Shown here piece by piece: positions 1 to 10,938 of a stretch of DNA of 32,125 bases (position 1 is the stretch's first letter; each line of letters starts with the position of its first letter). The translations under genes were made by a program, and so were the position numbers. The notes under the pieces were generated by a model that was given only the letters and a program-made list of their open reading frames with translations, had not been told where the DNA came from and searched no databases. The stretch comes from a virus. Taxonomy: Duplodnaviria > Heunggongvirae > Uroviricota > Caudoviricetes. The stretch lies in IMG/VR virus record IMGVR_UViG_2703718850_000013. One strand, given 5' to 3'.

Positions 1-489
1 ATGGCAAATAAAGCACGAGATTACGACAATACACCATTCCTACGCATTGCGGGGAATTTTGGAGACTATGACAACGATCTTACACCAGAAGCAAAACAGA
101 TAATTGATGAAGCAATAGCATCAGTCCCAATGGGTAACGGTAAGCCATATAGTGGATTTAAGATCTATTACATCGTTTTCAATTTGATCACATTCAGTAC
201 TGAGAAAGTTTTAGCCAGGTTACATCTTTACCAGGACTATCATATAAAAGAAGTTCAGGAACGTGTAAGTGAATCTACCGCAGTAAAGGTAAGGCGTGTA
301 GCAACCGCAGTATCAAAAGCTCTTATAGCAGCACATAAACGCAAAGTGAAGCTATTCAAAGTGCAAAAGGACGGAATGCACTACATAGACAACAAACAGT
401 TCTATGAGACGTTAGCAAACGCACATGATAGCGGAGCATCAGCAGAGGAACTAATTATTATTCTACAGGGTTTCATTGATGGTAAATGA
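1..489 (+). CDS. hypothetical protein (162 aa), function unknown
   Basis: Uninterrupted ORF starting with ATG at window position 1; no recognisable motif. May be N-terminally truncated by the window edge. Confidence 0.45.
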   Translation: MANKARDYDNTPFLRIAGNFGDYDNDLTPEAKQIIDEAIASVPMGNGKPYSGFKIYYIVFNLITFSTEKVLARLHLYQDYHIKEVQERVSESTAVKVRRVATAVSKALIAAHKRKVKLFKVQKDGMHYIDNKQFYETLANAHDSGASAEELIIILQGFIDGK

Positions 490-502
490 AGCATTTTTTA
501 AC

Positions 503-631
503 TCCATTAATGGAATGAGTTAATCCACTAATAGAGATTTTATTCCATTAATGGAGTGTTATATTCCAACATATATGGCTTGAAACCCGCATTCTACCGT
601 TGAAATTGTGAATTTTACTTCATTAATGGAA
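503..631. promoter_or_regulatory. cluster of three 12-bp palindromic sites (TCCATTAATGGA at 503-514 and 544-555; variant TCATTAATGGA at 620-630), operator-like
   Basis: Exact repeated dyad-symmetric sequence read directly from the intergenic region after the first ORF; a TCCACTAAT half-site also occurs at about 524-532. Confidence 0.4.
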
Positions 632-1117
632 CACTATAATATAATAACACATATAAAATGGACTGAAGTCCGAAGATCAAAACCTCGCAAGCTCGCCTTT
701 GATCTTAGAATTTATAACCAGACTTTCGCCCTTTCAGGTCGAGCAAGTCCTTTACTTGCTTTCGCTCAAACAAACCCCATGTACTCACCAAAGTGATTAA
801 TAAAGTATTTGGGGTCGACCTACGGTCTAAAGTATTCGTGAGTACTACGCGGTCGTAAACTCCCTTGTTTGGGTCGTTCGCTGTTGAAGCTCACTAAAGT
901 GAACCACTACCCATACTAGCTAGGAACTTAATTAATTAAAGTGTGAAGCCGCACCGCCGGATGAATACGCAACACACAAGCCACCGAGAGGCATACTATG
1001 AGGAAATGAAAGTGAGTAGGGAGTCTGTGTATACCCATTAGACTATGAAAATAAACTGGCCTTTATTATAGAATCACACCTTTTTAATAAATACCAGTAC
1101 TACAGAGGATAATAAAA

Positions 1118-1429
1118 ATGAAATTACTAAAAACTGAAGAGTATGATCTGTTTCACCGATACACGTATGAGGATCACAGTACTATGACAGTATTCACGGA
1201 TCAGATTGTCTACTTTAATCACCCAACACGTGTAGTACTGCAACGAGAAGGACTACAATTCTATCATCAGAAGATTGATGGTACTCAAATAAATGAAACA
1301 CCTGATCTATCTAGGATGAGTGAATCAGAACTATTCCAAGCAAGCTTAGCACTGCAAACAGAGATCGACATTAATCGATTAATTATTATTCAAACACAAA
1401 TGAATAAAATAAGTGAGGACTACGAATGA
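1118..1429 (+). CDS. hypothetical small protein (103 aa)
   Basis: ORF with GAGGA Shine-Dalgarno about 9 nt upstream of ATG; ATGA overlap with the next ORF suggests translational coupling. Confidence 0.5.
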   Translation: MKLLKTEEYDLFHRYTYEDHSTMTVFTDQIVYFNHPTRVVLQREGLQFYHQKIDGTQINETPDLSRMSESELFQASLALQTEIDINRLIIIQTQMNKISEDYE

Positions 1430-1626
1430 AAGGCGTCAATTTTATACACCATAACTATGGAGAGTACATCTATGAGTTTGATTTTAAAAAAGGAATTGTA
1501 GAAGTACTAGAGCTAGGTTATCAAGTAATTGAAAAGCATAACATACAATTATTGCAAGAACTACCTAGTACTAATCTACACAGAGATTTACTAATAGAAA
1601 TTTATTCAAAACACCAGATGCAATGA
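1426..1626 (+). CDS. hypothetical small protein (66 aa)
   Basis: ORF overlapping the upstream stop by 4 nt (ATGA). Confidence 0.4.
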   Translation: MKGVNFIHHNYGEYIYEFDFKKGIVEVLELGYQVIEKHNIQLLQELPSTNLHRDLLIEIYSKHQMQ

Positions 1627-1776
1627 TAAATCCGGTGTTTTAGAACTGATGCTTATTTGGGAAATGTAAACGTTTCTTTAATATGCATCCTTAATGATTT
1701 TGAATCAAGTATGACTTTTTCTATTAAGTCATCAGTAATTCTACAAACTTAATAGGTTTGCAAGATAGGGTATTAA

Positions 1777-2520
1777 TCATTTTTTCTTTAGAGTTATGAA
1801 GTTATCAATTGGATAGTTATCATCATATATATCTTTTATGAAAGATGAAATCTTATTGTGAAGTGAAATTGCTTTTGACTGTATAACGAAAAGCTCACTA
1901 CTAGTTTGATCCCTCACACATTCATCGGCCTGTATAAGTGCAGGAACCTCAGAACTTGCAATATAGAAATCGATACTCAGTCCGTTATATTCATCAATAT
2001 TTAATTTAAGTTCAGCAATAATGTTTTTTGTGTATTCGCTTAAAGCATAATTAGTTCTATCAATAGATTTTAAGGAATTAATAACGGAGTAAGAAGTGAA
2101 GAATAAATCGGAAACAAGAGCATCTGTTTCCTTCATAAACTCATCATGTGAATCTTGGGGTATGGTCTCGTTTTTTAAATGATTGCGATATTTTTTGGAG
2201 AATGTCACTAATTGATGTTTTAAAATTAAGGTTGAAGTACGTACTTTATTAAGATCTTGATAAATTGCTTTCTCAATAACACCATATACTACATCATAAT
2301 GTTTTTGCGACAACCATTCAGGTGCTTTTAGGTATGCTTGGTAGGCTACCCATAGTGTACCTAATGTACCTACAGCACTACATAATGTTCCAATTAAAGT
2401 TACCCACTCCCATCCTTTCGAACCAGAAAATAATATTTTTACACCAACTAATATAGCAATTAGCAGCAGTAATAGTACGGTACTTAGTAGTATTAAATTA
2501 TATTTTTTAATATTAAGCAT
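1777..2520 (-). CDS. 2TM membrane protein, paralog of 3498..4199 (start re-chosen at internal ATG)
   Basis: N-terminus MLNIKKYN...VKILFSGSKGWEW parallels MNIKTIN...VKVLFAGSRGFEW of the 3498..4199 product; two hydrophobic helices then an about 180-aa helical soluble region. The track start at 2568 adds 16 residues absent from the paralog. Confidence 0.6.
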   Translation of the reverse strand: MLNIKKYNLILLSTVLLLLLIAILVGVKILFSGSKGWEWVTLIGTLCSAVGTLGTLWVAYQAYLKAPEWLSQKHYDVVYGVIEKAIYQDLNKVRTSTLILKHQLVTFSKKYRNHLKNETIPQDSHDEFMKETDALVSDLFFTSYSVINSLKSIDRTNYALSEYTKNIIAELKLNIDEYNGLSIDFYIASSEVPALIQADECVRDQTSSELFVIQSKAISLHNKISSFIKDIYDDNYPIDNFITLKKK

Positions 2521-2584
2521 GTTAATCTCATTTCTTAAATAAAAGACATAGATGTATATATGTAGCATTGATGGATATATATTC

Positions 2585-2602
2585 CACTAATCATGATTAG
2601 TG
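2585..2602. promoter_or_regulatory. perfect 18-bp palindrome CACTAATCATGATTAGTG between two minus-strand genes
   Basis: Read directly; lies in the 118-nt gap between the 2639..3460 stop and the 2520 start, so it could be an operator or an attenuator hairpin. Confidence 0.3.
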
Positions 2603-2638
2603 CCTCTCTGATTAATAATGTGATACATGTCCATGTAA

Positions 2639-3460
2639 TTAATAACGGAAACTCCATGTTTTTCTACTCAAAGCTAACTTCTTATGGACAAGTAGAAATA
2701 CAAATATCTCATGGAGATATGGAACCAGAGGTTCTCTTATCCCTTTACTGTGCTCAATGTTGTCAATATCATCTTTAAATTTAGAAATTAGATAATAATA
2801 AGGCTGCAACATATCAATGATTTCAAACACAATATAAGGTGAAACGTTTATTACTTTCCAGGAAAGTATATACTCATCAATTTGGCTTAAAATCGCACCA
2901 TCAAGACCTCTATTCCAGGTGTAACCGTATGCTTTGTATTTGTCGGCCCATAAATTTAATTCTCTTTCTAGTTTTTGTTTTCTAGAATCAGTAATGTGTT
3001 TACGGAAGCAAGAATTAATTATTTCGTTCCACTGTGCTAACGGATCTTTGACTTCTTTTTTGCCTTTTACAATTTTATCAAGATTATAATATCTTGAAGC
3101 ATCAGCGAATTCAGAAAGCATTTCTAATATGAGGTTTTGCTGCCAGTTTAATTCCCACTCCAAATTGGGTAAATGGCTAGCACCATAGCTTGAACAGTTT
3201 TTATGAAGCTCCGCAATATTATGGCTGAATTTTTTAAGTGTACGGAAGTCTGGCTTCTCAAGATTATTTTCGATCATATGATTGAGTATGAAGATAATCT
3301 TAAAAAACCTTTCTATGCCAATTGATAATTGAAAGAAGCTGCTATAGAAGCTACCTTTATCATGTGCTCTACATTTCCGCACAGCAGTAAGCCCACCACC
3401 TATTGAGGTACTGGACAAATAAGACTCTACCATGAATTGATTAAATGACTCCCCAAGCAT
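2639..3460 (-). CDS. hypothetical cytoplasmic protein (273 aa), possible Abi/HEPN-like (weak)
   Basis: ORF with AAGGA Shine-Dalgarno 6 nt upstream of ATG at 3460; no TM segment; an R-x4-H motif (RKCRAH) near the N-terminus is the only HEPN-like hint. Confidence 0.55.
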   Translation of the reverse strand: MLGESFNQFMVESYLSSTSIGGGLTAVRKCRAHDKGSFYSSFFQLSIGIERFFKIIFILNHMIENNLEKPDFRTLKKFSHNIAELHKNCSSYGASHLPNLEWELNWQQNLILEMLSEFADASRYYNLDKIVKGKKEVKDPLAQWNEIINSCFRKHITDSRKQKLERELNLWADKYKAYGYTWNRGLDGAILSQIDEYILSWKVINVSPYIVFEIIDMLQPYYYLISKFKDDIDNIEHSKGIREPLVPYLHEIFVFLLVHKKLALSRKTWSFRY

Positions 3461-3497
3461 AAGCTTTCCTTTTTATTTACATCAATTAACTATAAAT

Positions 3498-4199
3498 TTA
3501 GCTGAACGAATAATCAGTATCAATATTTGTTTCACATAGCTCGTACTGAAATATGGCAGCTAGCTCTCTTTTAACACTTTCAAGATTTTCTGTAGCTGCA
3601 ATTACGTCCTCATGCTTGGGGCAATTAATATGTTTGCATATGGTCAATAGATATATATATTGATTGTCTAAATATGACTGCCTTAACTCTAATATATTTT
3701 TAAATAAATTTTCAAGCCGTTCGCTTAACTTAATATCAAACCTGGCTAGCATTGACCTTGTCGTATATAGCTTAGCAAGTTCAGATAAATCACTTGTGGC
3801 CTTTTTATTAATTTCAGCAGCAACTTTAGATTTTATTTCATCTGTCAGTTCTTTATTATCCTGAACATATTTCCTGATGGAAGCACGAACTATACCATCA
3901 TTATATAAACGTGAATTTATTTCCCATAACTGCATCTCAAATTTCATAGCCAACTGATGTGAGGTAGAAAGGGATTTTAATTTTTTATTCTGAACGAACC
4001 AATTATTTGCTACAAAAGCAGCACAAAGAGCTGTAGACGCAATCACGATATTGCATAACGCACTTGTTAAATCAGCTGCGTTCCCCCATTCAAACCCCCT
4101 GCTACCAGCGAATAGAACCTTAACGAGTACTAAGACTGCTAAAAACAGAAGTACTGCAACAATGCCGACAAGAGTAGAGTTTATAGTTTTTATATTCAT
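3498..4199 (-). CDS. 2TM membrane protein, paralog of 1777..2520
   Basis: Two N-terminal hydrophobic helices then a helical soluble domain; its ATG overlaps the upstream gene's TGA (ATGA at 4196-4199), implying coupling. Confidence 0.6.
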   Translation of the reverse strand: MNIKTINSTLVGIVAVLLFLAVLVLVKVLFAGSRGFEWGNAADLTSALCNIVIASTALCAAFVANNWFVQNKKLKSLSTSHQLAMKFEMQLWEINSRLYNDGIVRASIRKYVQDNKELTDEIKSKVAAEINKKATSDLSELAKLYTTRSMLARFDIKLSERLENLFKNILELRQSYLDNQYIYLLTICKHINCPKHEDVIAATENLESVKRELAAIFQYELCETNIDTDYSFS

Positions 4200-4747
4200 A
4201 ATTTATCAGCTATGTTAACTTCACTATAGAGCAAGCCTTTCAATTTCATCAAAGCTTCCCAAATTTCAGTTGGCTTACCGCTACAATTTCTAAGTAATAT
4301 TTCATCGTTTTCTTGTTTACTCAATGATGAATCATAAAACCGTGCTCCCAATTCTTCAAAATCATTTATAGCATTAGTAACCGTCCAAATCGCATCGTGA
4401 ATTTGTGGTGTCATGTATAATGTATAATCGAGAAGGAAGTCACTTGCTTTACTTTTAATTAAATCCTGTTTATAAAGCATAATTTGATCTAAAAGATCAC
4501 CATCATCATAAAAATTAAAATTTTCTGGAAGATTCAAAGAATTAATAAACTGAATGAAAGGTTTAATAGTTTGCTTTTTTTCTTTTAATTCATCTTCGAG
4601 TATTTTGAATAAAAGTTGTTTTTTTAGTTTTTCGTTCTCATATTTTTTAGTGATTAATTGGCTTGCCAATGTTACACCCGCAGCTATTAATGCACCGCCT
4701 AAAGTACCACCGACTGCAATGAGTTGTGTAATGGTTTCAGCTTCCAT
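4196..4747 (-). CDS. single-pass membrane protein (first gene of the putative four-gene operon; start re-chosen)
   Basis: One N-terminal TM helix (ITQLIAVGGTLGGALIAAGVTLA) then an about 150-aa soluble domain. The track start at 4771 is TTG; the ATG at 4745-4747 (MEAETITQ) is used here. No strong SD, so the start is uncertain. Confidence 0.5.
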   Translation of the reverse strand: MEAETITQLIAVGGTLGGALIAAGVTLASQLITKKYENEKLKKQLLFKILEDELKEKKQTIKPFIQFINSLNLPENFNFYDDGDLLDQIMLYKQDLIKSKASDFLLDYTLYMTPQIHDAIWTVTNAINDFEELGARFYDSSLSKQENDEILLRNCSGKPTEIWEALMKLKGLLYSEVNIADKL

Positions 4748-4818
4748 TTTTTTAGAAATCCAATATATCAAAGTGAAAAATGAACTTTACCATAATAACC
4801 ATTCTGGCGTAAACTATT

Positions 4819-4880
4819 AGCGACACGCCCCACTCATAAAGGGTAGGTTTGTTTAGTTGGTGTGTGTGGGACGTGTCGCT
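4819..4880. repeat. inverted repeat: 9-bp arms AGCGACACG (4819-4827) and CGTGTCGCT (4872-4880) with a 44-nt spacer
   Basis: Read directly; relatively GC-rich arms in an AT-rich intergenic region next to the octamer array. Confidence 0.5.
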
Positions 4881-4896
4881 GAACAGTTGGACTATG

Positions 4897-5024
4897 TTCT
4901 TATGTTCTTATGTTCTTATGTTCTTATGTTCTTATGTTCTTATGTTCTTATGTTCTTATGTTCTTATGTTCTTATGTTCTTATGTTCTTATGTTCTTATG
5001 TTCTTATGTTCTTATGTTCTTATG
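4897..5024. repeat. perfect tandem array, 16 x TTCTTATG (CATAAGAA on the minus strand)
   Basis: 128 nt of uninterrupted 8-nt periodicity read directly; intergenic between the HNH gene stop (5053) and the start of the 4747 operon. Confidence 0.95.
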
Positions 5025-5052
5025 TCTATATTTCTCAACCTTTAGTTGAAAA

Positions 5053-5856
5053 TCATTTAGGATAACTAACACAAGTATGACCAGAAATTACCATCATAAA
5101 TTGATTATTCTTTAAACCTACAAAGGGAAATGAAGCATAATCAATATTAGCCGTTGTCATATTAAAATGAAGAGATTGATCATATTGAGTCATTTCAGTT
5201 GCATGAATAGGAAATGTTCCTTGCTCCTTCAGTGTAACCAAAAAAGATATTGGGAAAAAATGTAAGCAAGAACATATACTATGATGTCCATTATTGTAGA
5301 ATGTAACTGACTGAGCAGTAATTTGTTTTCTGAATGGATAAAACCAATAGTAAATATTATGAGTTGCCCCAATGTCTGGATTCCTGCCTAATACAAAATT
5401 TCTCAATGGAGTATAAAAAGGACTATCAACAATAGGCTTCATACAATCTTTTACTGAAGTTGCAGCCAGAAGGTGTCCAATCATTGCTCTTAGAAATTTA
5501 TCCGCATCAAATTTTAATGAAATATAATTTTTGTAAAAGAACTTACCACTAAAATAATCATTTAACTTTTCGATGAATTCAGTTGTAACACGGCCTATTT
5601 CTGCATCCATTGATCCTAAAATATTCGAGTTACAATTGTGACAAATGGTACGAAAAGTTGTCCCGCTTTTTGCTTTAATTGGTGGTACTCGAGTATTAGA
5701 GAAATACTCAGAAATCGTTTTTTGTAACATAGGTGAAGGTTTAGATGCACATTGCGGGGGAACATGGTCTTTTTTTAATTTGCCAAAATTACCACATATT
5801 ACACAATATCCATTAGCTATTTTTACATGGTCAATTCTTTCAGAGACAAATTTCAT
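5053..5856 (-). CDS. HNH-endonuclease-domain protein with about 200-aa C-terminal extension of unknown function
   Basis: N-terminal CVICG-x7-DHVPP ... TICHNCN matches the HNH zinc-finger/His-Me pattern (CxxCG...DH..P...CxxCN). Confidence 0.6.
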   Translation of the reverse strand: MKFVSERIDHVKIANGYCVICGNFGKLKKDHVPPQCASKPSPMLQKTISEYFSNTRVPPIKAKSGTTFRTICHNCNSNILGSMDAEIGRVTTEFIEKLNDYFSGKFFYKNYISLKFDADKFLRAMIGHLLAATSVKDCMKPIVDSPFYTPLRNFVLGRNPDIGATHNIYYWFYPFRKQITAQSVTFYNNGHHSICSCLHFFPISFLVTLKEQGTFPIHATEMTQYDQSLHFNMTTANIDYASFPFVGLKNNQFMMVISGHTCVSYPK

Positions 5857-6179
5857 TCTGCAATCTCAAAAGTTAACATCACCAAAATATAGAGCATTCA
5901 AACACAATGTTCAATATGATTTTACTCTAACCAGTGTGCTATTTTTTATGCAAACTTATACATGGACGAATACTCAAACTGCGATAATAAACTGAAAATA
6001 TCGATATAAGAATTGATTTTATGAGTAATCATCATTATAGCCTATACCATGTAGCATTAACACTTTACCACCAAATAGAACATACATATACTATTGATTA
6101 TCGACCTAGGGTAAGTTTATCAATTATGGTACGATAGAATCTAAATAATCTATAGTAGCAAGAGGCTTAGGGGGAGATA

Positions 6180-6854
6180 ATGGAGTGGAAGAAAGAGCTT
6201 AGAGCAAAGTTTGAAAGAGACGAACTTAGAAGATTAATTTCTAATGTAAACTGGATTATATTCAAACCTAAAATAAAAAAGCAATTAGAAATACTATCAA
6301 CCCAATTATCAGGAGAGCATATAAGATTTAATATAATTGATATGCAAGATGAACCAGATGGTTATGGTTTTGATTGCCTGACATTTCAGATCGCTGATCG
6401 TATGACTGGAAATATGCGGCAGGAAAAAACTACCGAAAGCATAAAGTTTAATCATCATTGGCAAAAAGGAGCCGCACTTTCAATTACATATAGTGCGACG
6501 GGGGCTGTGCATATAATTCTTTTTCCGTCTACTTCAGATGATTCATTAGCAACACATGATTCCTTGATTGTCCATCATTCATATAACGTTAAACACATAA
6601 CACCAAAAAAAATAGAGAAAGCAGTAAAGAATTTACTTCATTATCACCGTGTTACAGGTGTTTTACACAAGGCCGCATTAAAAGATTTAATTTTAATCCG
6701 CTTACTGAAAATTAAGATGTTTTTTATTCAGTATAACGACAAAGAGAACAAGTTTAGAAGAGTTACAGCATTATATATACCTACATTAAGTCTTATAGTT
6801 TCGTTGGCTGCCGCAGTAGCATCTATTCTGGCATTAGTATCTGTTAAATCATGA
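6180..6854 (+). CDS. tail-anchored membrane protein (224 aa), unknown function
   Basis: Strong SD (GGGGGAG) before the ATG; single C-terminal hydrophobic helix (LSLIVSLAAAVASILALVSV); the only plus-strand gene in the island, convergent with the nucleotidyltransferase gene. Confidence 0.55.
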   Translation: MEWKKELRAKFERDELRRLISNVNWIIFKPKIKKQLEILSTQLSGEHIRFNIIDMQDEPDGYGFDCLTFQIADRMTGNMRQEKTTESIKFNHHWQKGAALSITYSATGAVHIILFPSTSDDSLATHDSLIVHHSYNVKHITPKKIEKAVKNLLHYHRVTGVLHKAALKDLILIRLLKIKMFFIQYNDKENKFRRVTALYIPTLSLIVSLAAAVASILALVSVKS

Positions 6855-6860
6855 TGATTA

Positions 6861-6890
6861 TAAGCCAGCAACTAACTGGCTTATAAATTA
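6861..6890 (+). terminator. putative intrinsic terminator after 6180..6854
   Basis: Stem TAAGCCAG / CTGGCTTA with 7-nt loop, followed by a T/A-rich tail, 7 nt after the stop codon. Confidence 0.45.
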
Positions 6891-7099
6891 GAAATTGGAA
6901 ACTATCTCTTCTCACAAAACTGCTATCTTTAGCGATAAGGGAATGTAATCTCCTGATACTGATGGTAGAGGAGCGGGTCATACAATCTTAGCAATCTCAT
7001 TTAGCTGTACGACGGTGGAATGTTTCAACTGTACTCAATTCTTACAAGTAAAAATATCGAGAATGATTTTTTGGATTCAAGCAAAGACAATGAGCTGTA

Positions 7100-7127
7100 C
7101 CCCCTTATAATTAGTAATATAAGGGGG
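7100..7127. terminator. hairpin CCCCCTTATA-loop-TATAAGGGGG between convergent genes
   Basis: 10-bp perfect stem with 8-nt loop, 5 nt downstream of the 7133..7909 stop; possibly bidirectional. Confidence 0.45.
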
Positions 7128-7132
7128 CAAGA

Positions 7133-7909
7133 TTATTTTATGGGTAAAATTTTCTTTATTTCATTTTCGGCGGCAAAATGATTGTTTAACTGCTCATAAT
7201 ATTTTGACATCATAACTGAATTTTTTAGACGCTGAATCTTATCTTTTTTCCATTGTGCGAGATAATAGGAACCTGAAAGTTGTTCTACAGCAGAGTAAAA
7301 ATATTCTTTAAGGGTAGAGCACCAAAAATAGTTAAAGCTAACAATATCTTTTTCAAGTTGATACGACTCAAAGACATAACCTGCATTGGCATTCCAATAT
7401 TTCATTATGCGAATAAGAGGCTTAATTAAATTGTTATTATTTTTATTGCAATTAGTTAAATCAGTATTGAACGCATTGGGATCGGTATTCATCCAACGGT
7501 TCAAAAAATCCTGGTTGGAAGGGATTTGATAACCAAATAAAATATTATGAGATGCAGGGACAAGCTCGAAAGTAATATGATTAAGGTTCAATTGAATAGT
7601 AGGGTGGCTTTGCTTTATTTCAGATGTACGATAGTAATAATTTACAAAACCCCTTAGCTTGTTTAGGTAGGTCTGAGGCTGATATATTACATTTTTGAAT
7701 ACAACCATATAATCAACATCAGAAGAAGGATCATAGCTACGAGGAAGCATTGTATTACGTGAATATGAGCCAAATACAAAATGACTAACAAGTTCACCAG
7801 CAAAATAACCATTCAGTCTGTTTTTTATGGTTGCAATTGAATTCGTTATTGTAATATCTCTTTGATAAGCATTGCTTTTAATAGACTCAAGATAGGTACT
7901 GACTGTCAT
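7133..7909 (-). CDS. pol-beta-type nucleotidyltransferase, SMODS/CD-NTase-like
   Basis: FGSYSRNT...SDVDY (hG[GS]-x9-13-DxD) plus a later acidic residue (FELVP); AAGGAA SD 6 nt upstream; start lies 2 nt after the upstream gene's stop. Confidence 0.6.
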   Translation of the reverse strand: MTVSTYLESIKSNAYQRDITITNSIATIKNRLNGYFAGELVSHFVFGSYSRNTMLPRSYDPSSDVDYMVVFKNVIYQPQTYLNKLRGFVNYYYRTSEIKQSHPTIQLNLNHITFELVPASHNILFGYQIPSNQDFLNRWMNTDPNAFNTDLTNCNKNNNNLIKPLIRIMKYWNANAGYVFESYQLEKDIVSFNYFWCSTLKEYFYSAVEQLSGSYYLAQWKKDKIQRLKNSVMMSKYYEQLNNHFAAENEIKKILPIK

Positions 7910-7911
7910 GT

Positions 7912-8415
7912 TTATTCCTTGTCAATATTATACTTAGTAAAGCCTTGGTTAACATCTCTTTGAGTTTTCTCATAAGCCCACCGAGGAATATTTGGCGAAC
8001 TTGAATTAAGTTGATTGCGTCGATCAGAGTAACTCGTAAGTTTTTCAATCAAAGTTTTATCAGTAAAATCAAAATTAGAAGTCAATATTTCCCTAAATAT
8101 TCTAACTTCATTCTTTAATTTATTATATTCATTTGCTGCTGATTTATGAAGTGCAGCACGCTTACTTGGGTTAAGAGACGTATTTAATGCAGTTAGAATT
8201 GTAGCAGTTATGGAAATAGCTACAACAGCATTGGCTGTACTCTTGATTGCGGCAATACCACTCAAAGCGGTTAAGATTGCTAATGGTACACCGAACCACA
8301 GATTCAGCTTATCCCATCTATCAGAAACATTATAATGAGATTTAGAAGAGTACAGAGCGTCCTCTTCTATACGATGACACTCAGAAATGACTGTTTGGAT
8401 GAGCTTCTGATTCAT
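7912..8415 (-). CDS. 2TM membrane protein, SLATT-like effector candidate (start re-chosen)
   Basis: About 40-aa N-terminal region, two TM helices (LWFGVPLAILTALSGIAAI; AVVAISITATILTAL), helical C-terminal region; tightly coupled to the nucleotidyltransferase gene. ATG at 8413-8415 has a GGAG SD; the track start is a GTG two codons upstream. Confidence 0.55.
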   Translation of the reverse strand: MNQKLIQTVISECHRIEEDALYSSKSHYNVSDRWDKLNLWFGVPLAILTALSGIAAIKSTANAVVAISITATILTALNTSLNPSKRAALHKSAANEYNKLKNEVRIFREILTSNFDFTDKTLIEKLTSYSDRRNQLNSSSPNIPRWAYEKTQRDVNQGFTKYNIDKE

Positions 8416-8579
8416 AAACACTCCAACAAATCCGATTCCCTAACAGTATAACATGGTAGGGTTAATAAATACTATAGGTACTTCCCTCTGAATAGACACA
8501 ATCGGGAAGTTTCGCCGCGAACTATTTTTTTTGCATATTAAATATTTTAAATAACACAAACAAAACCTGGATAAACAAA

Positions 8580-9101
8580 TTGAACGATAGATATACAACA
8601 AACGAAATTGCAGAACGTATGGGAGTTAATGACAGTACTGTAAGCCGTGAATGGGCAAAACGTGGAATGCCACACCCAAAGAAAGCAAGTAAAAAAGAAA
8701 TAGATCAATGGATACTAATTAATATTATCCAACCATTGCGAAATACTGATGTAAAAGAACAGATTGAAAAAGAGAAATTACGCAAGATATCACTTGAAGC
8801 AGATTTAGTTGAGATTGAATTAAATATCAGTACTGAAAAGGTATTGAGTACTGATTATGTAACTCAAACACTAACTGGTTATTTTGCAGCACTACGCGGA
8901 GTACTAAGAAGTATTCCGGCATCTATCTATGTAGAACTATTTGAAAGTGAAGATGCGGATACATTGCGGATAAAACTAGAAGAAAGGATTGATGAGAAAC
9001 TAAGGGAATTAGGATCATATGAGTACGAAGAACAGCCAGAAGAAGATGATGAAGATTCTGAACCAGAGTCTGAAATCAATATTACCCCCACCGAAGATTA
9101 A
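8580..9101 (+). CDS. terminase small subunit, lambda Nu1-like
   Basis: N-terminal HTH TNEIAERMGVNDSTVSREWAKRGMP resembles Nu1 (…IRTIQNWQEQGMP) and EKEKLRK resembles Nu1 ENEKLRR; acidic C-terminus. Track start is TTG with no clear SD, so the true start is uncertain. Confidence 0.6.
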   Translation: MNDRYTTNEIAERMGVNDSTVSREWAKRGMPHPKKASKKEIDQWILINIIQPLRNTDVKEQIEKEKLRKISLEADLVEIELNISTEKVLSTDYVTQTLTGYFAALRGVLRSIPASIYVELFESEDADTLRIKLEERIDEKLRELGSYEYEEQPEEDDEDSEPESEINITPTED

Positions 9102-10938
9102 ACCATCTGAATGGTGTGAACAATATACTGTATTTCCAGATGGACCACTGGCACAACAAAAAACTAAATTATTTTCATTTCAAGTAGAACCCCTAAACGC
9201 CACAGTAGATCCATCAGTACAGAAGATCTGTTTAATGAGTAGTGCACAATTACTCAAGACAACAATACTACAAAATGCAATGCTTTACAGGATGGCAAAT
9301 AAACCCTCCCATATGATATTTGCGGGTAGTAGTGGTAGTACTGTGAAAAAGTTCCGTACTGGTAAATGGATGGATACTATTAATGCGTGTCCAAACCTTC
9401 AAGCATTAATCACTGACAAATCAGATAAGAATGCAGTAAACGATCTACACACTCAACAGAACGTTGACGGTACTAAGACATACTTTGTTAACCTCAATTC
9501 TAGCCAGTCCCTACGCTCGCTTACAGTTCCTGCAATCTTCATTGATGAATTATCAGGTGTAGATCCAGAACAAGATGAGGGCAACCCCCTATCACTCATA
9601 GAACAGCGTGCAACTCAGTTTGGTAAGAACTCCCTGATCGTGATGGCCTCCACACCATTAGTACAGGACGATATGATCTGCCAGCAATGGGAACTCTCAG
9701 ACCAGAGACATTTTCATGTCGTGTGTCCACATTGTGATCATGACCATATTTTAGAATGGGAGAATATAAAGTTTGAATGGGTGAAGTTCAACGAACGACG
9801 TAATGCACCAGAACCCACTACAGCACGCCTACACTGTCCAGGATGTGATGAAGTAATCACTGAAGGGCAACGTGCACGGATGGTTGCAAAAGGTTACTGG
9901 AAAGCACACAGACTGCATGTGATGGGTTTCAGGGGATACCATGTTAATAGACTATATTCACCGATTACTACTATTGAGAAGATTGTTGAAGACTTTAAGA
10001 ACTCATGGATAAACTTTGAAGAACAATCTTTCTATAATAACGTACTCGGTTTACCGTGGGTAGATAAGAATAATATTAAAGAAGATCTTACAGTACTGGA
10101 AAACTTACGCGACTTTGATTTAGATGTAAAACATATTCCAGATAATGCACTTGGTATTGTACTGGCATGTGACCAACAGATAGACCGCTTAGAATGTAGT
10201 ACTATTGCATTTGATGAAAAGAATATATGGGTTCTGGACCACCGTATGTTTTATGGTGTCGATTGTACTAAGTATGAAGATAAGGCATATACTGAACTAC
10301 TTAATTATAGTAAGAGTATATTTAAAACCACTTCAGGTAGAAAAGTACCAGTACTGAGATCCTTTATTGATAGCTCAAACGGATCTGCAACCAGTTCCAT
10401 ATATCGCTTTTGTTCTTCCAGTGGGGGACGATGGCATGCAATTAAGGGTGCAAACACACAGACTGGTCCCATCACGAAGGATTCCACAACGGCAGGACAT
10501 CAACTGGTTAATATTAATACTCAAGTACTGAAGCACCAGGTTAAGAAGTTATTACGACAGGCATGTGAAGGGGGAGAGTATAGTACTAATATACACTTCA
10601 GTCATTCCCTTGTCGATGATTACTTCCTCCAACTTACAGCAGAAAAACTAGTACGAAAAGGTTCAGTGATGGTATGGGAGAATCCAAATGGAGAGCGTAA
10701 CGAATGTCTCGATACGCTCGTCTACTCATTAGCAGCGATTGATCACAAGATACAGGCACTTGGTGCACAACCGTATAGGAAGTTGCGAGAGTATAGAGCT
10801 AAACAAAAAGAACTAAATACTAAAGTAGAAGAATCCATAAAAACTAAAGCAGAACAACAACCAGTACAGAAAGAGAAGCAGAAATCAAAACCTAAGAAAA
10901 AAGGACTTTCAGCACTTAATAATCGTAACTGGTTTTAA
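9019..10938 (+). CDS. terminase large subunit, GpA-like
   Basis: 639 aa, immediately after TerS, with cysteine/histidine clusters (CPHCDHDH; CPGCDE); AGGA SD before ATG 9019; overlaps TerS by 83 nt (alternative ATGs at 9046/9049). Confidence 0.8.
   Translation: MSTKNSQKKMMKILNQSLKSILPPPKIKPSEWCEQYTVFPDGPLAQQKTKLFSFQVEPLNATVDPSVQKICLMSSAQLLKTTILQNAMLYRMANKPSHMIFAGSSGSTVKKFRTGKWMDTINACPNLQALITDKSDKNAVNDLHTQQNVDGTKTYFVNLNSSQSLRSLTVPAIFIDELSGVDPEQDEGNPLSLIEQRATQFGKNSLIVMASTPLVQDDMICQQWELSDQRHFHVVCPHCDHDHILEWENIKFEWVKFNERRNAPEPTTARLHCPGCDEVITEGQRARMVAKGYWKAHRLHVMGFRGYHVNRLYSPITTIEKIVEDFKNSWINFEEQSFYNNVLGLPWVDKNNIKEDLTVLENLRDFDLDVKHIPDNALGIVLACDQQIDRLECSTIAFDEKNIWVLDHRMFYGVDCTKYEDKAYTELLNYSKSIFKTTSGRKVPVLRSFIDSSNGSATSSIYRFCSSSGGRWHAIKGANTQTGPITKDSTTAGHQLVNINTQVLKHQVKKLLRQACEGGEYSTNIHFSHSLVDDYFLQLTAEKLVRKGSVMVWENPNGERNECLDTLVYSLAAIDHKIQALGAQPYRKLREYRAKQKELNTKVEESIKTKAEQQPVQKEKQKSKPKKKGLSALNNRNWF

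What the first reader, a model, noticed from the sequence alone, without database searches (positions are those of the whole stretch)
6180..6854. Lone plus-strand tail-anchored membrane protein inside the island
This gene has a strong SD and a single C-terminal TM helix, and it is convergent with the nucleotidyltransferase gene, with terminator-like hairpins between them. Its position between the HNH gene and the NTase pair suggests it is an independent cargo gene, possibly an immunity or exclusion factor.
Basis: inference. Interest (0 to 1): 0.4.

Follow-up and report, generated by a model that had tools for sequence, protein, structure and literature searches.

The report
Orphan tail-anchored prophage cargo protein
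This is a real, stand-alone prophage cargo gene for a small membrane-anchored protein of unknown family that sits among anti-phage defence genes in several bacteria; it has already been predicted to be a defence gene and tested once, with no protection seen.

Summary
The ORF at 6180..6854 (+), 224 aa, is real. It has a GGGGGAG Shine-Dalgarno, a conserved C-terminal transmembrane helix, dN/dS of about 0.1-0.2, and two stable hairpins before the convergent CBASS cyclase gene.

It is not part of the neighbouring CBASS:
- A related E. coli prophage carries that CBASS without this gene.
- One strain has the gene split by an IS with CBASS intact.
- Homologues elsewhere lie next to Old, SIR2-HerA, Uzume or methyl-directed restriction genes.

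The near-identical WP_000454879.1 (one substitution, I48V) is candidate "VANC" in DeWeirdt et al., Science 2026. It scored a DefensePredictor log-odds of 9.46. Cloned with its native promoter in MG1655, it gave no protection against 24 phages.

Best reading: an independent defence-island cargo gene, probably a narrow-range exclusion or defence factor. That function is unproven. Interest is modest.

The parts
6064..6092 (+). Sigma-70-like promoter candidate (TTTACC-17-TATACT), 88 nt upstream of the ATG. Weak evidence only.
   Evidence: The number of promoter-like sites in the region is no higher than in shuffles (8 found against a mean of 7.6). Upstream regions are not conserved between lineages.
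6170..6176 (+). Shine-Dalgarno sequence GGGGGAG.
   Evidence: Read directly from the sequence.
6180..6854 (+). CDS of 224 aa, an orphan tail-anchored membrane protein. It differs from WP_000454879.1 / UniProt B7LD23 by I48V only.
6180..6731 (+). Predicted cytoplasmic domain, residues 1-184: helix 2-43, seven-stranded antiparallel sheet 50-134, helices 142-159 and 167-184.
6768..6845 (+). C-terminal transmembrane helix (about residues 197-222), rich in small residues (SLAAAVAS). It is preceded by the basic stretch KENKFRR and followed by only 2 residues.
6858..6886 (.). Perfect 11-bp inverted repeat (TTATAAGCCAG / CTGGCTTATAA) starting 4 nt after the stop codon. Probable transcript-end hairpin; it has no U-tract.
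   Evidence: -13.9 kcal/mol, z -5.4 on the + strand; -16.5 kcal/mol, z -5.8 on the - strand.
7100..7127 (.). Perfect 10-bp inverted repeat (CCCCCTTATA / TATAAGGGGG) just beyond the stop of the convergent cyclase gene. On the + strand a T-rich run follows it.
   Evidence: -19.3 kcal/mol, z -4.1 on the - strand.
7133..8421 (-). Context, not part of the feature: type I CBASS, made of a SMODS cyclase (7133..7909) and a SLATT 2TM effector (7912..8421).
   Evidence: PDLC00769 3.5e-113; PDLC00712 2.2e-70.
3498..4771 (-). Context, not part of the feature: a two-gene transmembrane operon about 99% identical to WP_001022716.1 + WP_000387046.1. This is the experimentally validated defence system DS-13.
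   Evidence: PMC13092281, Tables S6 and S8.

Best explanation
The gene is an autonomous, horizontally mobile cargo gene (a 'moron') in the variable defence hotspot just upstream of the terminase genes of a low-GC lambda-like prophage.

It encodes a tail-anchored inner-membrane protein. About 185 residues form a non-enzymatic helix/sheet/helix sandwich that faces the cytoplasm, and a single C-terminal helix holds it in the membrane.

The most likely role (inferred, not shown) is a narrow-spectrum phage exclusion or defence factor. In this model the cytoplasmic domain binds a phage or host protein at the inner face of the membrane. It then either sequesters that protein or blocks it there (genome entry, early functions), or it triggers association of the small-residue-rich tail helices and so damages the membrane.

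What is shown:
- The gene is real and under purifying selection.
- The tail-anchor architecture is conserved across the family.
- The gene is independent of CBASS and of the HNH-like gene.
- Family members lie repeatedly next to diverse known defence genes.

What is inferred: the topology, the binding function, and the defence or exclusion role itself.
For: Real gene:
- Homologues at 46-70% identity across Escherichia, Serratia, Dryocola, Buttiauxella, Pantoea and Mangrovibacter.
- dN/dS about 0.1-0.2 with saturated synonymous sites.

Conserved architecture:
- Confident model, pLDDT 92.
- C-terminal hydrophobic helix in 39 of 46 members.

Probably non-enzymatic:
- Across 46 members only W25 is invariant and G97 and L100 nearly so. 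No conserved Asp, Glu, His, Cys or Lys.
- The nearest folds are binding scaffolds: frataxin/CyaY, Nqo15, Med14/17, TriTu immunity protein, type III secretion chaperones and PsiB, all with Z no higher than 8.7.

Autonomy:
- CBASS occurs without the gene in E. coli GF3-3.
- The gene is IS-disrupted with CBASS intact in EM06-18-14.
- No neighbour is conserved across loci.

Defence context. Immediate neighbours of family members are:
- type I CBASS in the window;
- Old, 9.6e-76, in Serratia;
- SIR2-HerA, 2.9e-155 and 3.7e-253, in Mangrovibacter;
- a methyl-directed type II restriction enzyme, 1.3e-71, plus an HNH protein in L015;
- UzuA, 5e-53, plus a PLD nuclease in L030.
The validated system DS-13 lies about 1.4 kb upstream in the window.

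Mobile and viral setting:
- Seven IMG/VR viral contigs carry close relatives.
- Related prophages carry the gene in the same slot.
- Distant members occur in phage contigs.

Independent prediction: DefensePredictor log-odds 9.46, category 'Predicted novel defense gene', with no HHblits homology to known defence proteins (PMC13092281 Table S6).
Against: - The near-identical protein WP_000454879.1 ('VANC') was cloned with its native promoter region on low-copy pCV1 in E. coli MG1655. It gave no protection against a panel of 24 coliphages.
- No member matches any PADLOC model.
- Proximity to defence genes is only circumstantial. Prophage hotspots also carry anti-defence genes and other morons.
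- Nine of about 14 dereplicated contexts had no recognised defence neighbour.
- The fold matches are weak and generic, so they give no real mechanistic anchor.
- There is no evidence of expression, membrane insertion or oligomerisation.
Confidence: 0.5

Rival explanations
1. The gene is a prophage or island moron whose role is not anti-phage. Examples would be a membrane-associated factor in the prophage's own life cycle (lysis timing, lysogeny maintenance, envelope remodelling) or a host-fitness factor. On this view it simply accumulates in the same variable hotspots as defence genes.
For: - Negative result against 24 phages.
- No homology to any defence family.
- Many neighbours in other loci are unannotated proteins rather than recognised defence genes.
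- Some family members sit inside phage structural or early regions.
Against: - In the window it is not in a lysis cassette.
- In Serratia and Mangrovibacter it sits in small chromosomal islets whose only other cargo is a defence system, with no prophage genes in the 8 kb read on either side in Serratia.
- The DefensePredictor score is high.
Confidence: 0.27
2. The gene is an anti-defence or counter-defence factor. The cytoplasmic binding domain would inhibit a host or competitor immune protein, as PsiB or immunity-type proteins of similar fold do, to help the prophage or mobile element.
For: - It is prophage-borne.
- Anti-defence genes can cluster near defence genes.
Against: - It occurs in stable chromosomal islets beside single defence systems in Serratia and Mangrovibacter, outside any recognisable phage.
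- A membrane anchor is unusual for known anti-defence proteins (general knowledge).
- It is absent from 50,697 sequenced phage genomes. Among 72,556 plasmids there is a single weak partial hit.
Confidence: 0.13
3. The gene is a functional partner (immunity protein, regulator or extra effector) of the adjacent CBASS cyclase/2TM pair.
For: - It is adjacent to the CBASS. In the 88 complete E. coli genomes that carry this element, both are present at 99% identity or more.
- Both products are membrane proteins.
Against: - It is convergent, not co-oriented, and separated by two hairpins.
- Ten E. coli genomes carry a 77%-identical CBASS without it, and the one locus read (GF3-3) has that CBASS in the same prophage slot.
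- CBASS is intact where the gene is IS-disrupted.
- No homologue outside E. coli is next to a CBASS.
- The co-occurrence within E. coli reflects one nearly clonal element.
Confidence: 0.04

Closest known systems
DefensePredictor candidate 'VANC' (WP_000454879.1), DeWeirdt et al., Science 2026, PMC13092281, Tables S6 and S11
   Same: It is the same protein apart from I48V. It lies in the same island as DS-13, 'COAT' and 'PDP1'.
   Different: Nothing differs biologically. That study scored it as 'Predicted novel defense gene' (log-odds 9.46) but found no protection against 24 phages, gave it no DS name and did not analyse it further. The structure, family size, cross-genus contexts and independence from CBASS are added here.
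Prophage-encoded inner-membrane superinfection-exclusion or abortive-infection proteins (T4 Imm and Sp, P22 SieA, HK97 gp15, lambda RexB). Named from general knowledge.
   Same: Small, prophage- or phage-borne, membrane-embedded, single-gene accessory functions located in moron-type slots.
   Different: There is no sequence or fold relationship. As recalled, and not checked here, those proteins have N-terminal or multiple transmembrane segments and little cytoplasmic mass. This protein is tail-anchored with a cytoplasmic domain of about 185 residues. No exclusion phenotype has been shown.
SNIPE, a membrane-bound defence nuclease acting at the site of genome injection (Saxton et al., Nature 2026, PMC13190303)
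   Same: The concept is similar: a constitutively membrane-localised defence protein whose cytoplasmic part meets the phage at the inner membrane.
   Different: SNIPE is a nuclease. This family has no nuclease domain and no conserved catalytic residues. No homology was found.
Frataxin/CyaY, Nqo15 and type III secretion chaperone-like alpha/beta sandwiches, including the TriTu immunity protein and PsiB
   Different: Sequence identity is only 7-13%. There is no Pfam or PDB sequence match. This protein has extra strands, a 42-residue first helix and a membrane anchor. The resemblance is at the level of a common fold, not a family.
CBASS 2TM/SLATT effectors and DS-13B-type N-terminal 2TM proteins in the same island
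   Same: Membrane proteins of defence islands; physical neighbours of this gene.
   Different: Those have N-terminal 2TM modules. This protein has a single C-terminal transmembrane helix and shows no homology to them.

Membership tests
Tail-anchored membrane protein (architectural class) | A single hydrophobic helix within about 30 residues of the C-terminus; no signal peptide or other transmembrane segment; the bulk of the protein on the cytoplasmic side. | tested here: met
   Residues 197-222 reach a Kyte-Doolittle mean of 2.46 and only 2 residues follow. No other window scores 1.6 or more. The feature is conserved in 39 of 46 members. The AlphaFold model has a helix at 188-223. The cytoplasmic orientation is inferred from the K/R residues before the helix and was not tested experimentally.
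CBASS (as an accessory, effector or immunity component) | Encoded in the operon with, and phylogenetically co-occurring with, a CD-NTase. | tested here: not met
   The gene is convergent with the cyclase. CBASS occurs without it. It occurs without CBASS in every other genus. An IS-disrupted copy sits beside an intact CBASS.
CBASS (as an accessory, effector or immunity component) | A recognised Cap or effector domain (SAVED, STING, TIR, patatin, 2TM/4TM, E1/E2/JAB, HORMA/TRIP13). | tested here: not met
   No Pfam or PADLOC hit for the protein or for any of 46 relatives.
Known anti-phage defence families (PADLOC-DB v2.0.0) | A significant HMM match to a defence-system protein model. | tested here: not met
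   No families at E of 0.1 or less for the protein. No families at E of 0.01 or less for 46 family members.
Experimentally validated DefensePredictor systems (DS-1 to DS-45) | At least a ten-fold drop in efficiency of plating, or smaller plaques, for at least one of 24 phages when cloned in MG1655. | tested here: not met
   Literature result, not my experiment. Table S6 of PMC13092281 lists VANC / WP_000454879.1 with defensive = FALSE and no DS name. The method is described.
Defence-island gene (guilt by association) | Recurrent location next to diverse known defence systems in unrelated genomes. | tested here: met
   Immediate neighbours are CBASS, Old, SIR2-HerA, a methyl-directed type II restriction enzyme and UzuA/PLD, in 5 of about 14 dereplicated contexts. 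A weak type IV-like HNH protein adds a sixth. No formal background statistic was computed.
Superinfection-exclusion proteins of temperate phages | Prophage-encoded, expressed in the lysogen, membrane-located, and blocking entry or early development of specific superinfecting phages. | tested here: inconclusive
   Prophage-borne and predicted to be a membrane protein: met. Expression in the lysogen and an exclusion phenotype cannot be tested with these tools. The published 24-phage panel was negative. The rows I saw include T4, T5, T7, lambda, SECphi and Bas phages; I did not check whether it held any relative of this prophage.
Frataxin/CyaY family | Sequence-family membership (a Pfam frataxin/CyaY match). 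| tested here: not met
Holin or antiholin | A small (under about 150 aa) membrane protein encoded in the lysis cassette next to the endolysin. | tested here: not met
   The protein has 224 aa with a large soluble domain. It lies between an HNH-like gene and a CBASS, upstream of the terminase genes. No PHROG lysis family matched.

The most novel reading that the evidence does not exclude
The family is a new type of single-protein, non-enzymatic, tail-anchored phage-exclusion factor. Its frataxin/chaperone-like cytoplasmic domain would recognise a specific phage protein at the inner membrane, for example an injection or early protein of temperate siphoviruses related to the carrier prophage. This would explain the negative result with the 24-phage laboratory panel.
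Probability: 0.35. Interest if true: 0.55.

Novelty: new variant of a known kind. Interest (0 to 1): 0.35.

Why it matters
If it is a defence or exclusion factor, it would add a protein family with no homology to any known defence protein and an unusual design: a binding domain plus a tail anchor, with no enzyme. It would also be a concrete case of a high-scoring machine-learning prediction that needs the right phage to show a phenotype.

In practical terms, the analysis shows the gene need not be considered part of the adjacent CBASS or of DS-13. It also maps a defence hotspot upstream of the terminase genes in one family of enterobacterial prophages.

As it stands, it is a conserved hypothetical protein with one negative functional test, so its significance is moderate.

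Tried and rejected
Sequence and family searches
- Pfam, NCBIfam, PADLOC and PHROGs scans of the protein gave nothing. The one exception was an E = 0.014 match of 27 juxtamembrane residues to phrog_9634 ('nuclease'). I rejected it as too short and too weak.
- Scanning all 46 family members against Pfam and PADLOC gave only stray hits: DUF6353 in 2 of 46, and KH_Vigilin and DUF4788 in one each.
- A profile search of PDB sequences found nothing below E = 0.45.

Structure searches
- Foldseek against viral structures (BFVD) found nothing with E of 0.001 or less.
- The afdb50 library was unavailable.

Collections and context
- Isolated phage genomes gave no DNA or protein match.
- Plasmids gave one weak partial hit, in Pseudoalteromonas.
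- The search for related loci with the broad alignment failed because no stretch was conserved enough. With the close alignment it added only two genomes.
- A second word-indexed homology search with the profile added few distant members.

Tests of linkage
- A conserved partner gene was tested and rejected. The HNH-like neighbour in the window is unrelated to the 242-aa HNH protein found beside homologues elsewhere. The downstream genes also differ.
- A conserved upstream regulatory element was not found.

Other
- Rfam found nothing credible in 5800-7300.
- The consensus terminator scan did not call the two hairpins.
- Helix 167-184 is not notably amphipathic (hydrophobic moment 0.12), so I dropped the idea of an interfacial amphipathic helix.
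- Literature searches by accession (WP_000454879, B7LD23) in main texts found nothing. The hit came only from the supplementary tables of PMC13092281.

Full report
**1. The observation**

The ORF listing and the raw sequence show an ATG-started ORF at 6180..6854 on the + strand, 224 codons long. GGGGGAG lies at 6170-6176, just before the start codon.

A hydropathy scan finds one strongly hydrophobic segment, about residues 197-222 (LYIPTLSLIVSLAAAVASILALVSV). Its 19-residue Kyte-Doolittle mean reaches 2.46. The basic stretch KENKFRR precedes it and only two residues follow.

The gene is convergent with the minus-strand gene 7133..7909. The 278-nt spacer contains two perfect inverted repeats, at 6858-6886 and 7100-7127. 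Both fold far better than shuffled controls: -13.9 kcal/mol (z -5.4) and -19.3 kcal/mol (z -4.1). Neither has a canonical U-tract, and the consensus terminator scan did not call them. The only caveats are that "terminator" is not demonstrated and that the upstream "HNH gene" is only weakly HNH-like (Pfam HNH_5 E = 0.036; phrog_21495, unknown function).

**2. It is a real gene**

A search of 5.8 billion proteins returned 15 clusters of full-length relatives at 46-99% identity (L013 and L014). They come from E. coli, Serratia, Dryocola/Cedecea, Pantoea and metagenomes. Genome scans added Buttiauxella and Mangrovibacter.

Codon-level comparison gives dN/dS of about 0.1-0.2 with synonymous sites saturated.

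An exhaustive profile search of 1.84 billion representative proteins found 74 clusters with E of 0.001 or less, 21 of them with E of 1e-10 or less. Nearly all are 200-245 aa with the same layout. In an alignment of 46 members, 39 keep a C-terminal hydrophobic helix, with a median of four residues after it. The tail anchor is thus a family trait.

**3. What the protein looks like**

With the 46-sequence alignment, AlphaFold2 gives a confident model (pLDDT 92, pTM 0.80). It has a 42-residue N-terminal helix (2-43), a seven-stranded antiparallel sheet (50-134), two helices (142-159 and 167-184), a short less confident linker, and the transmembrane helix (188-223). The earlier 14-sequence model agrees.

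No sequence library recognises the protein or any of 46 relatives:
- Pfam, NCBIfam, PADLOC and PHROGs;
- PDB sequences;
- BFVD structures.

**4. Surroundings in the window**

Positions 7133..8421 (-) encode a type I CBASS: a SMODS cyclase (PDLC00769, 3.5e-113) and a SLATT 2TM effector (PDLC00712, 2.2e-70). From 8580 onward come the terminase small subunit, the GpA large terminase and the structural genes. Related loci show the GpA terminase and a lambda-type portal.

The cargo zone 1-8500 has 33% G+C, against 38-40% for the structural genes. The element is chromosomal in 88 of 5,426 complete E. coli genomes, at 99% identity or more. In E. coli 55989 the gene is annotated as hypothetical protein WP_000454879.1.

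**5. Independence from its neighbours**

Three findings separate the gene from the CBASS.
- Ten E. coli genomes carry a 77%-identical CBASS but no copy of the gene. In strain GF3-3 that CBASS sits in the same slot upstream of the terminase genes, directly next to a 242-aa HNH endonuclease.
- In strain EM06-18-14 the gene is split by ISVsa5, while both CBASS proteins keep their usual accessions. In EC147566 an IS2 sits between the gene and the CBASS.
- Outside E. coli no homologue lies next to a CBASS.

An all-against-all comparison of the cargo zone with twelve homologue-bearing loci found the target to be the only conserved cargo gene. The other shared genes were the terminase small subunit, the first ORF, and weak matches among N-terminal transmembrane proteins.

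The HNH-like neighbour in the window is unrelated to the 242-aa HNH protein that precedes the homologue in Dryocola, Buttiauxella and L015.

The gene is therefore an autonomous module. An immunity or partner role for the cyclase pair is not supported.

**6. Recurrent defence-island context**

I scanned the immediate neighbours of family members in independent loci with PADLOC and Pfam. The recognised defence neighbours were:

| Locus | Immediate neighbour | Best E-value |
|---|---|---|
| Serratia (L002) | Old nuclease, convergent, in a two-gene chromosomal islet | 9.6e-76 |
| Mangrovibacter (L014) | SIR2-HerA | 2.9e-155 / 3.7e-253 |
| L015 | DUF6998 methyl-directed type II restriction enzyme, plus an HNH protein | 1.3e-71 |
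| L030 | UzuA, plus a PLD nuclease | 5e-53 |
| Dryocola / Buttiauxella | HNH protein with a weak type IV restriction match | 7.8e-08 |

Together with the CBASS in the window, 5 of about 14 dereplicated contexts have a known defence system as direct neighbour, and the weak type IV-like HNH adds a sixth. The remaining neighbours are mostly unannotated proteins.

Close relatives occur on seven IMG/VR viral contigs. They also sit in the same slot of related prophages that have a serine recombinase and a GpA terminase. Distant members occur in phage contigs or at prophage ends. No sequenced isolated phage carries a relative, and plasmids give only one weak partial hit.

**7. Prior knowledge**

Main-text searches by accession found nothing. 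The supplementary tables of DeWeirdt et al., "DefensePredictor" (Science 2026, PMC13092281) do list WP_000454879.1, under working id VANC, on ECOR contig NZ_QOYF01000062.1 at 8499-9173. The entry reads:
- DefensePredictor log-odds 9.46;
- HHblits log-odds -2.35, meaning no remote homology to known defence proteins;
- category "Predicted novel defense gene";
- defensive = FALSE, with no DS name.

According to the paper, each unit was cloned with its native promoter region on low-copy pCV1 in MG1655 and challenged with 24 diverse coliphages. Strain MG1655 pCV1-VANC is listed. The window protein differs from WP_000454879.1 only by I48V.

The same contig yielded three more candidates:
- TMO1 (WP_000387046.1 + WP_001022716.1, equal to window 3498..4771) was validated as DS-13.
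- COAT (WP_000900255.1, equal to window 2639..3460) was not defensive.
- PDP1 (WP_001609855.1, equal to the HNH-like gene 5053..5856) was not defensive.

The authors note that non-validated candidates may need other phages, other hosts or redefined boundaries.

**8. Interpretation**

These points are firmly supported:
- the gene is real and under purifying selection;
- it encodes a tail-anchored protein whose large domain probably faces the cytoplasm and is probably non-enzymatic;
- it is an independent, horizontally mobile cargo gene of prophage and chromosomal defence hotspots.

Its function is inferred. The most likely role is a narrow-range exclusion or defence factor acting at the inner face of the membrane. 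It could sequester or block a phage or host protein there, or it could respond to binding by associating its small-residue-rich tail helices and damaging the membrane. I put this at about 0.5, because the only direct test was negative.

The alternatives are:
- a non-defence moron (about 0.27);
- an anti-defence factor (about 0.13);
- a CBASS partner (about 0.04).

A conceptual analogue for defence at the membrane is SNIPE (PMC13190303). SNIPE is a nuclease, and this family is not.

**9. Novelty and score**

The protein family is uncharacterised and unrelated to known families, but its kind, a prophage-borne membrane accessory protein in a defence island, is familiar. The defence prediction, and a negative test of it, are already published.

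What is new here:
- the confident structure;
- the definition and size of the family;
- the demonstration that the gene is independent of the CBASS;
- the cross-genus association with Old, SIR2-HerA, Uzume and restriction genes.

I rate interest at 0.35. If the protein proves to be a binder-plus-anchor exclusion factor with narrow specificity, it would deserve about 0.55.

Noticed in passing
window 4893-5025: A perfect 8-bp tandem repeat, TATGTTCT. Tandem Repeats Finder counts 16.6 copies at 100% match. It lies in the intergenic region about 120 bp upstream of the start of the DS-13 operon (4196..4771 / 3498..4199, minus strand) and just past the 3' end of the HNH-like gene. Copy number varies between otherwise nearly identical elements: 16 whole copies in the window, 5 in IMG/VR contig L024 and 1 in E. 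coli 55989. This could be a phase-variable or expression-tuning repeat for a validated defence system.
   Followed up: partly
window 3498-4771 (-): A two-gene operon of transmembrane proteins, about 99% identical to WP_001022716.1 and WP_000387046.1. This is the experimentally validated defence system DS-13 ('TMO1') of DeWeirdt et al. 2026. Its first gene has an HHpred match to a transmembrane HEPN protein of type VI-B CRISPR loci, according to their Table S8.
   Followed up: partly
window 1777-2568 (-): A 263-aa protein whose N-terminal 2TM module is 42% identical over 64 residues to that of DS-13B (3498..4199). The same module recurs in L006 and L013. It looks like a family of 2TM-headed proteins with variable C-terminal domains spread through this prophage hotspot.
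   Followed up: partly
window 7133-8421 (-): A complete two-gene type I CBASS (SMODS cyclase plus SLATT 2TM effector), placed directly upstream of the terminase small-subunit gene. A 77%-identical version occupies the same slot in a related prophage of E. coli GF3-3.
   Followed up: yes
window 1-8500 compared with L006, L007, L013, L015, L023: The region between the early genes and the small-terminase gene of this family of lambda-like prophages (GpA terminase; a serine recombinase in L006, L007, L013 and L015, integrated next to prkA in L006 and L007) behaves as a variable defence hotspot. Its contents differ in every lineage and include CBASS, DS-13, a type IV-like HNH protein, a methyl-directed type II restriction enzyme, 8xMP proteins and many unknowns.
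   Followed up: partly
window 2639-3460 (-) and 5053-5856 (-): Both genes were also high-scoring DefensePredictor candidates: 'COAT', log-odds 12.36, and 'PDP1', log-odds 7.50. Both were tested and found not defensive in MG1655. The 5053..5856 product belongs to phrog_21495 and has only a marginal HNH signature.
   Followed up: partly
window 4820-4879: A 14-bp inverted repeat, GCGACACGCCCCAC ... GTGGGACGTGTCGC, with one mismatch here and none in E. coli 55989. It has a 32-nt loop and lies immediately beside the 8-bp tandem repeat. Its function is unknown.
   Followed up: no
L021 (E. coli EM06-18-14) and L022 (E. coli EC147566): IS elements have landed in this small region. ISVsa5 sits inside the target gene in EM06-18-14. 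IS2 sits in the spacer between the target and the CBASS in EC147566. In 55989-type strains IS100 truncates the large terminase gene, so that copy of the element is a prophage remnant.
   Followed up: yes
L010, L012, L014 (Pantoea, Mangrovibacter): The called products carry 12-25 extra N-terminal residues that are not conserved. The internal Met that aligns with the E. coli start (MKW...) is probably the true start codon.
   Followed up: no
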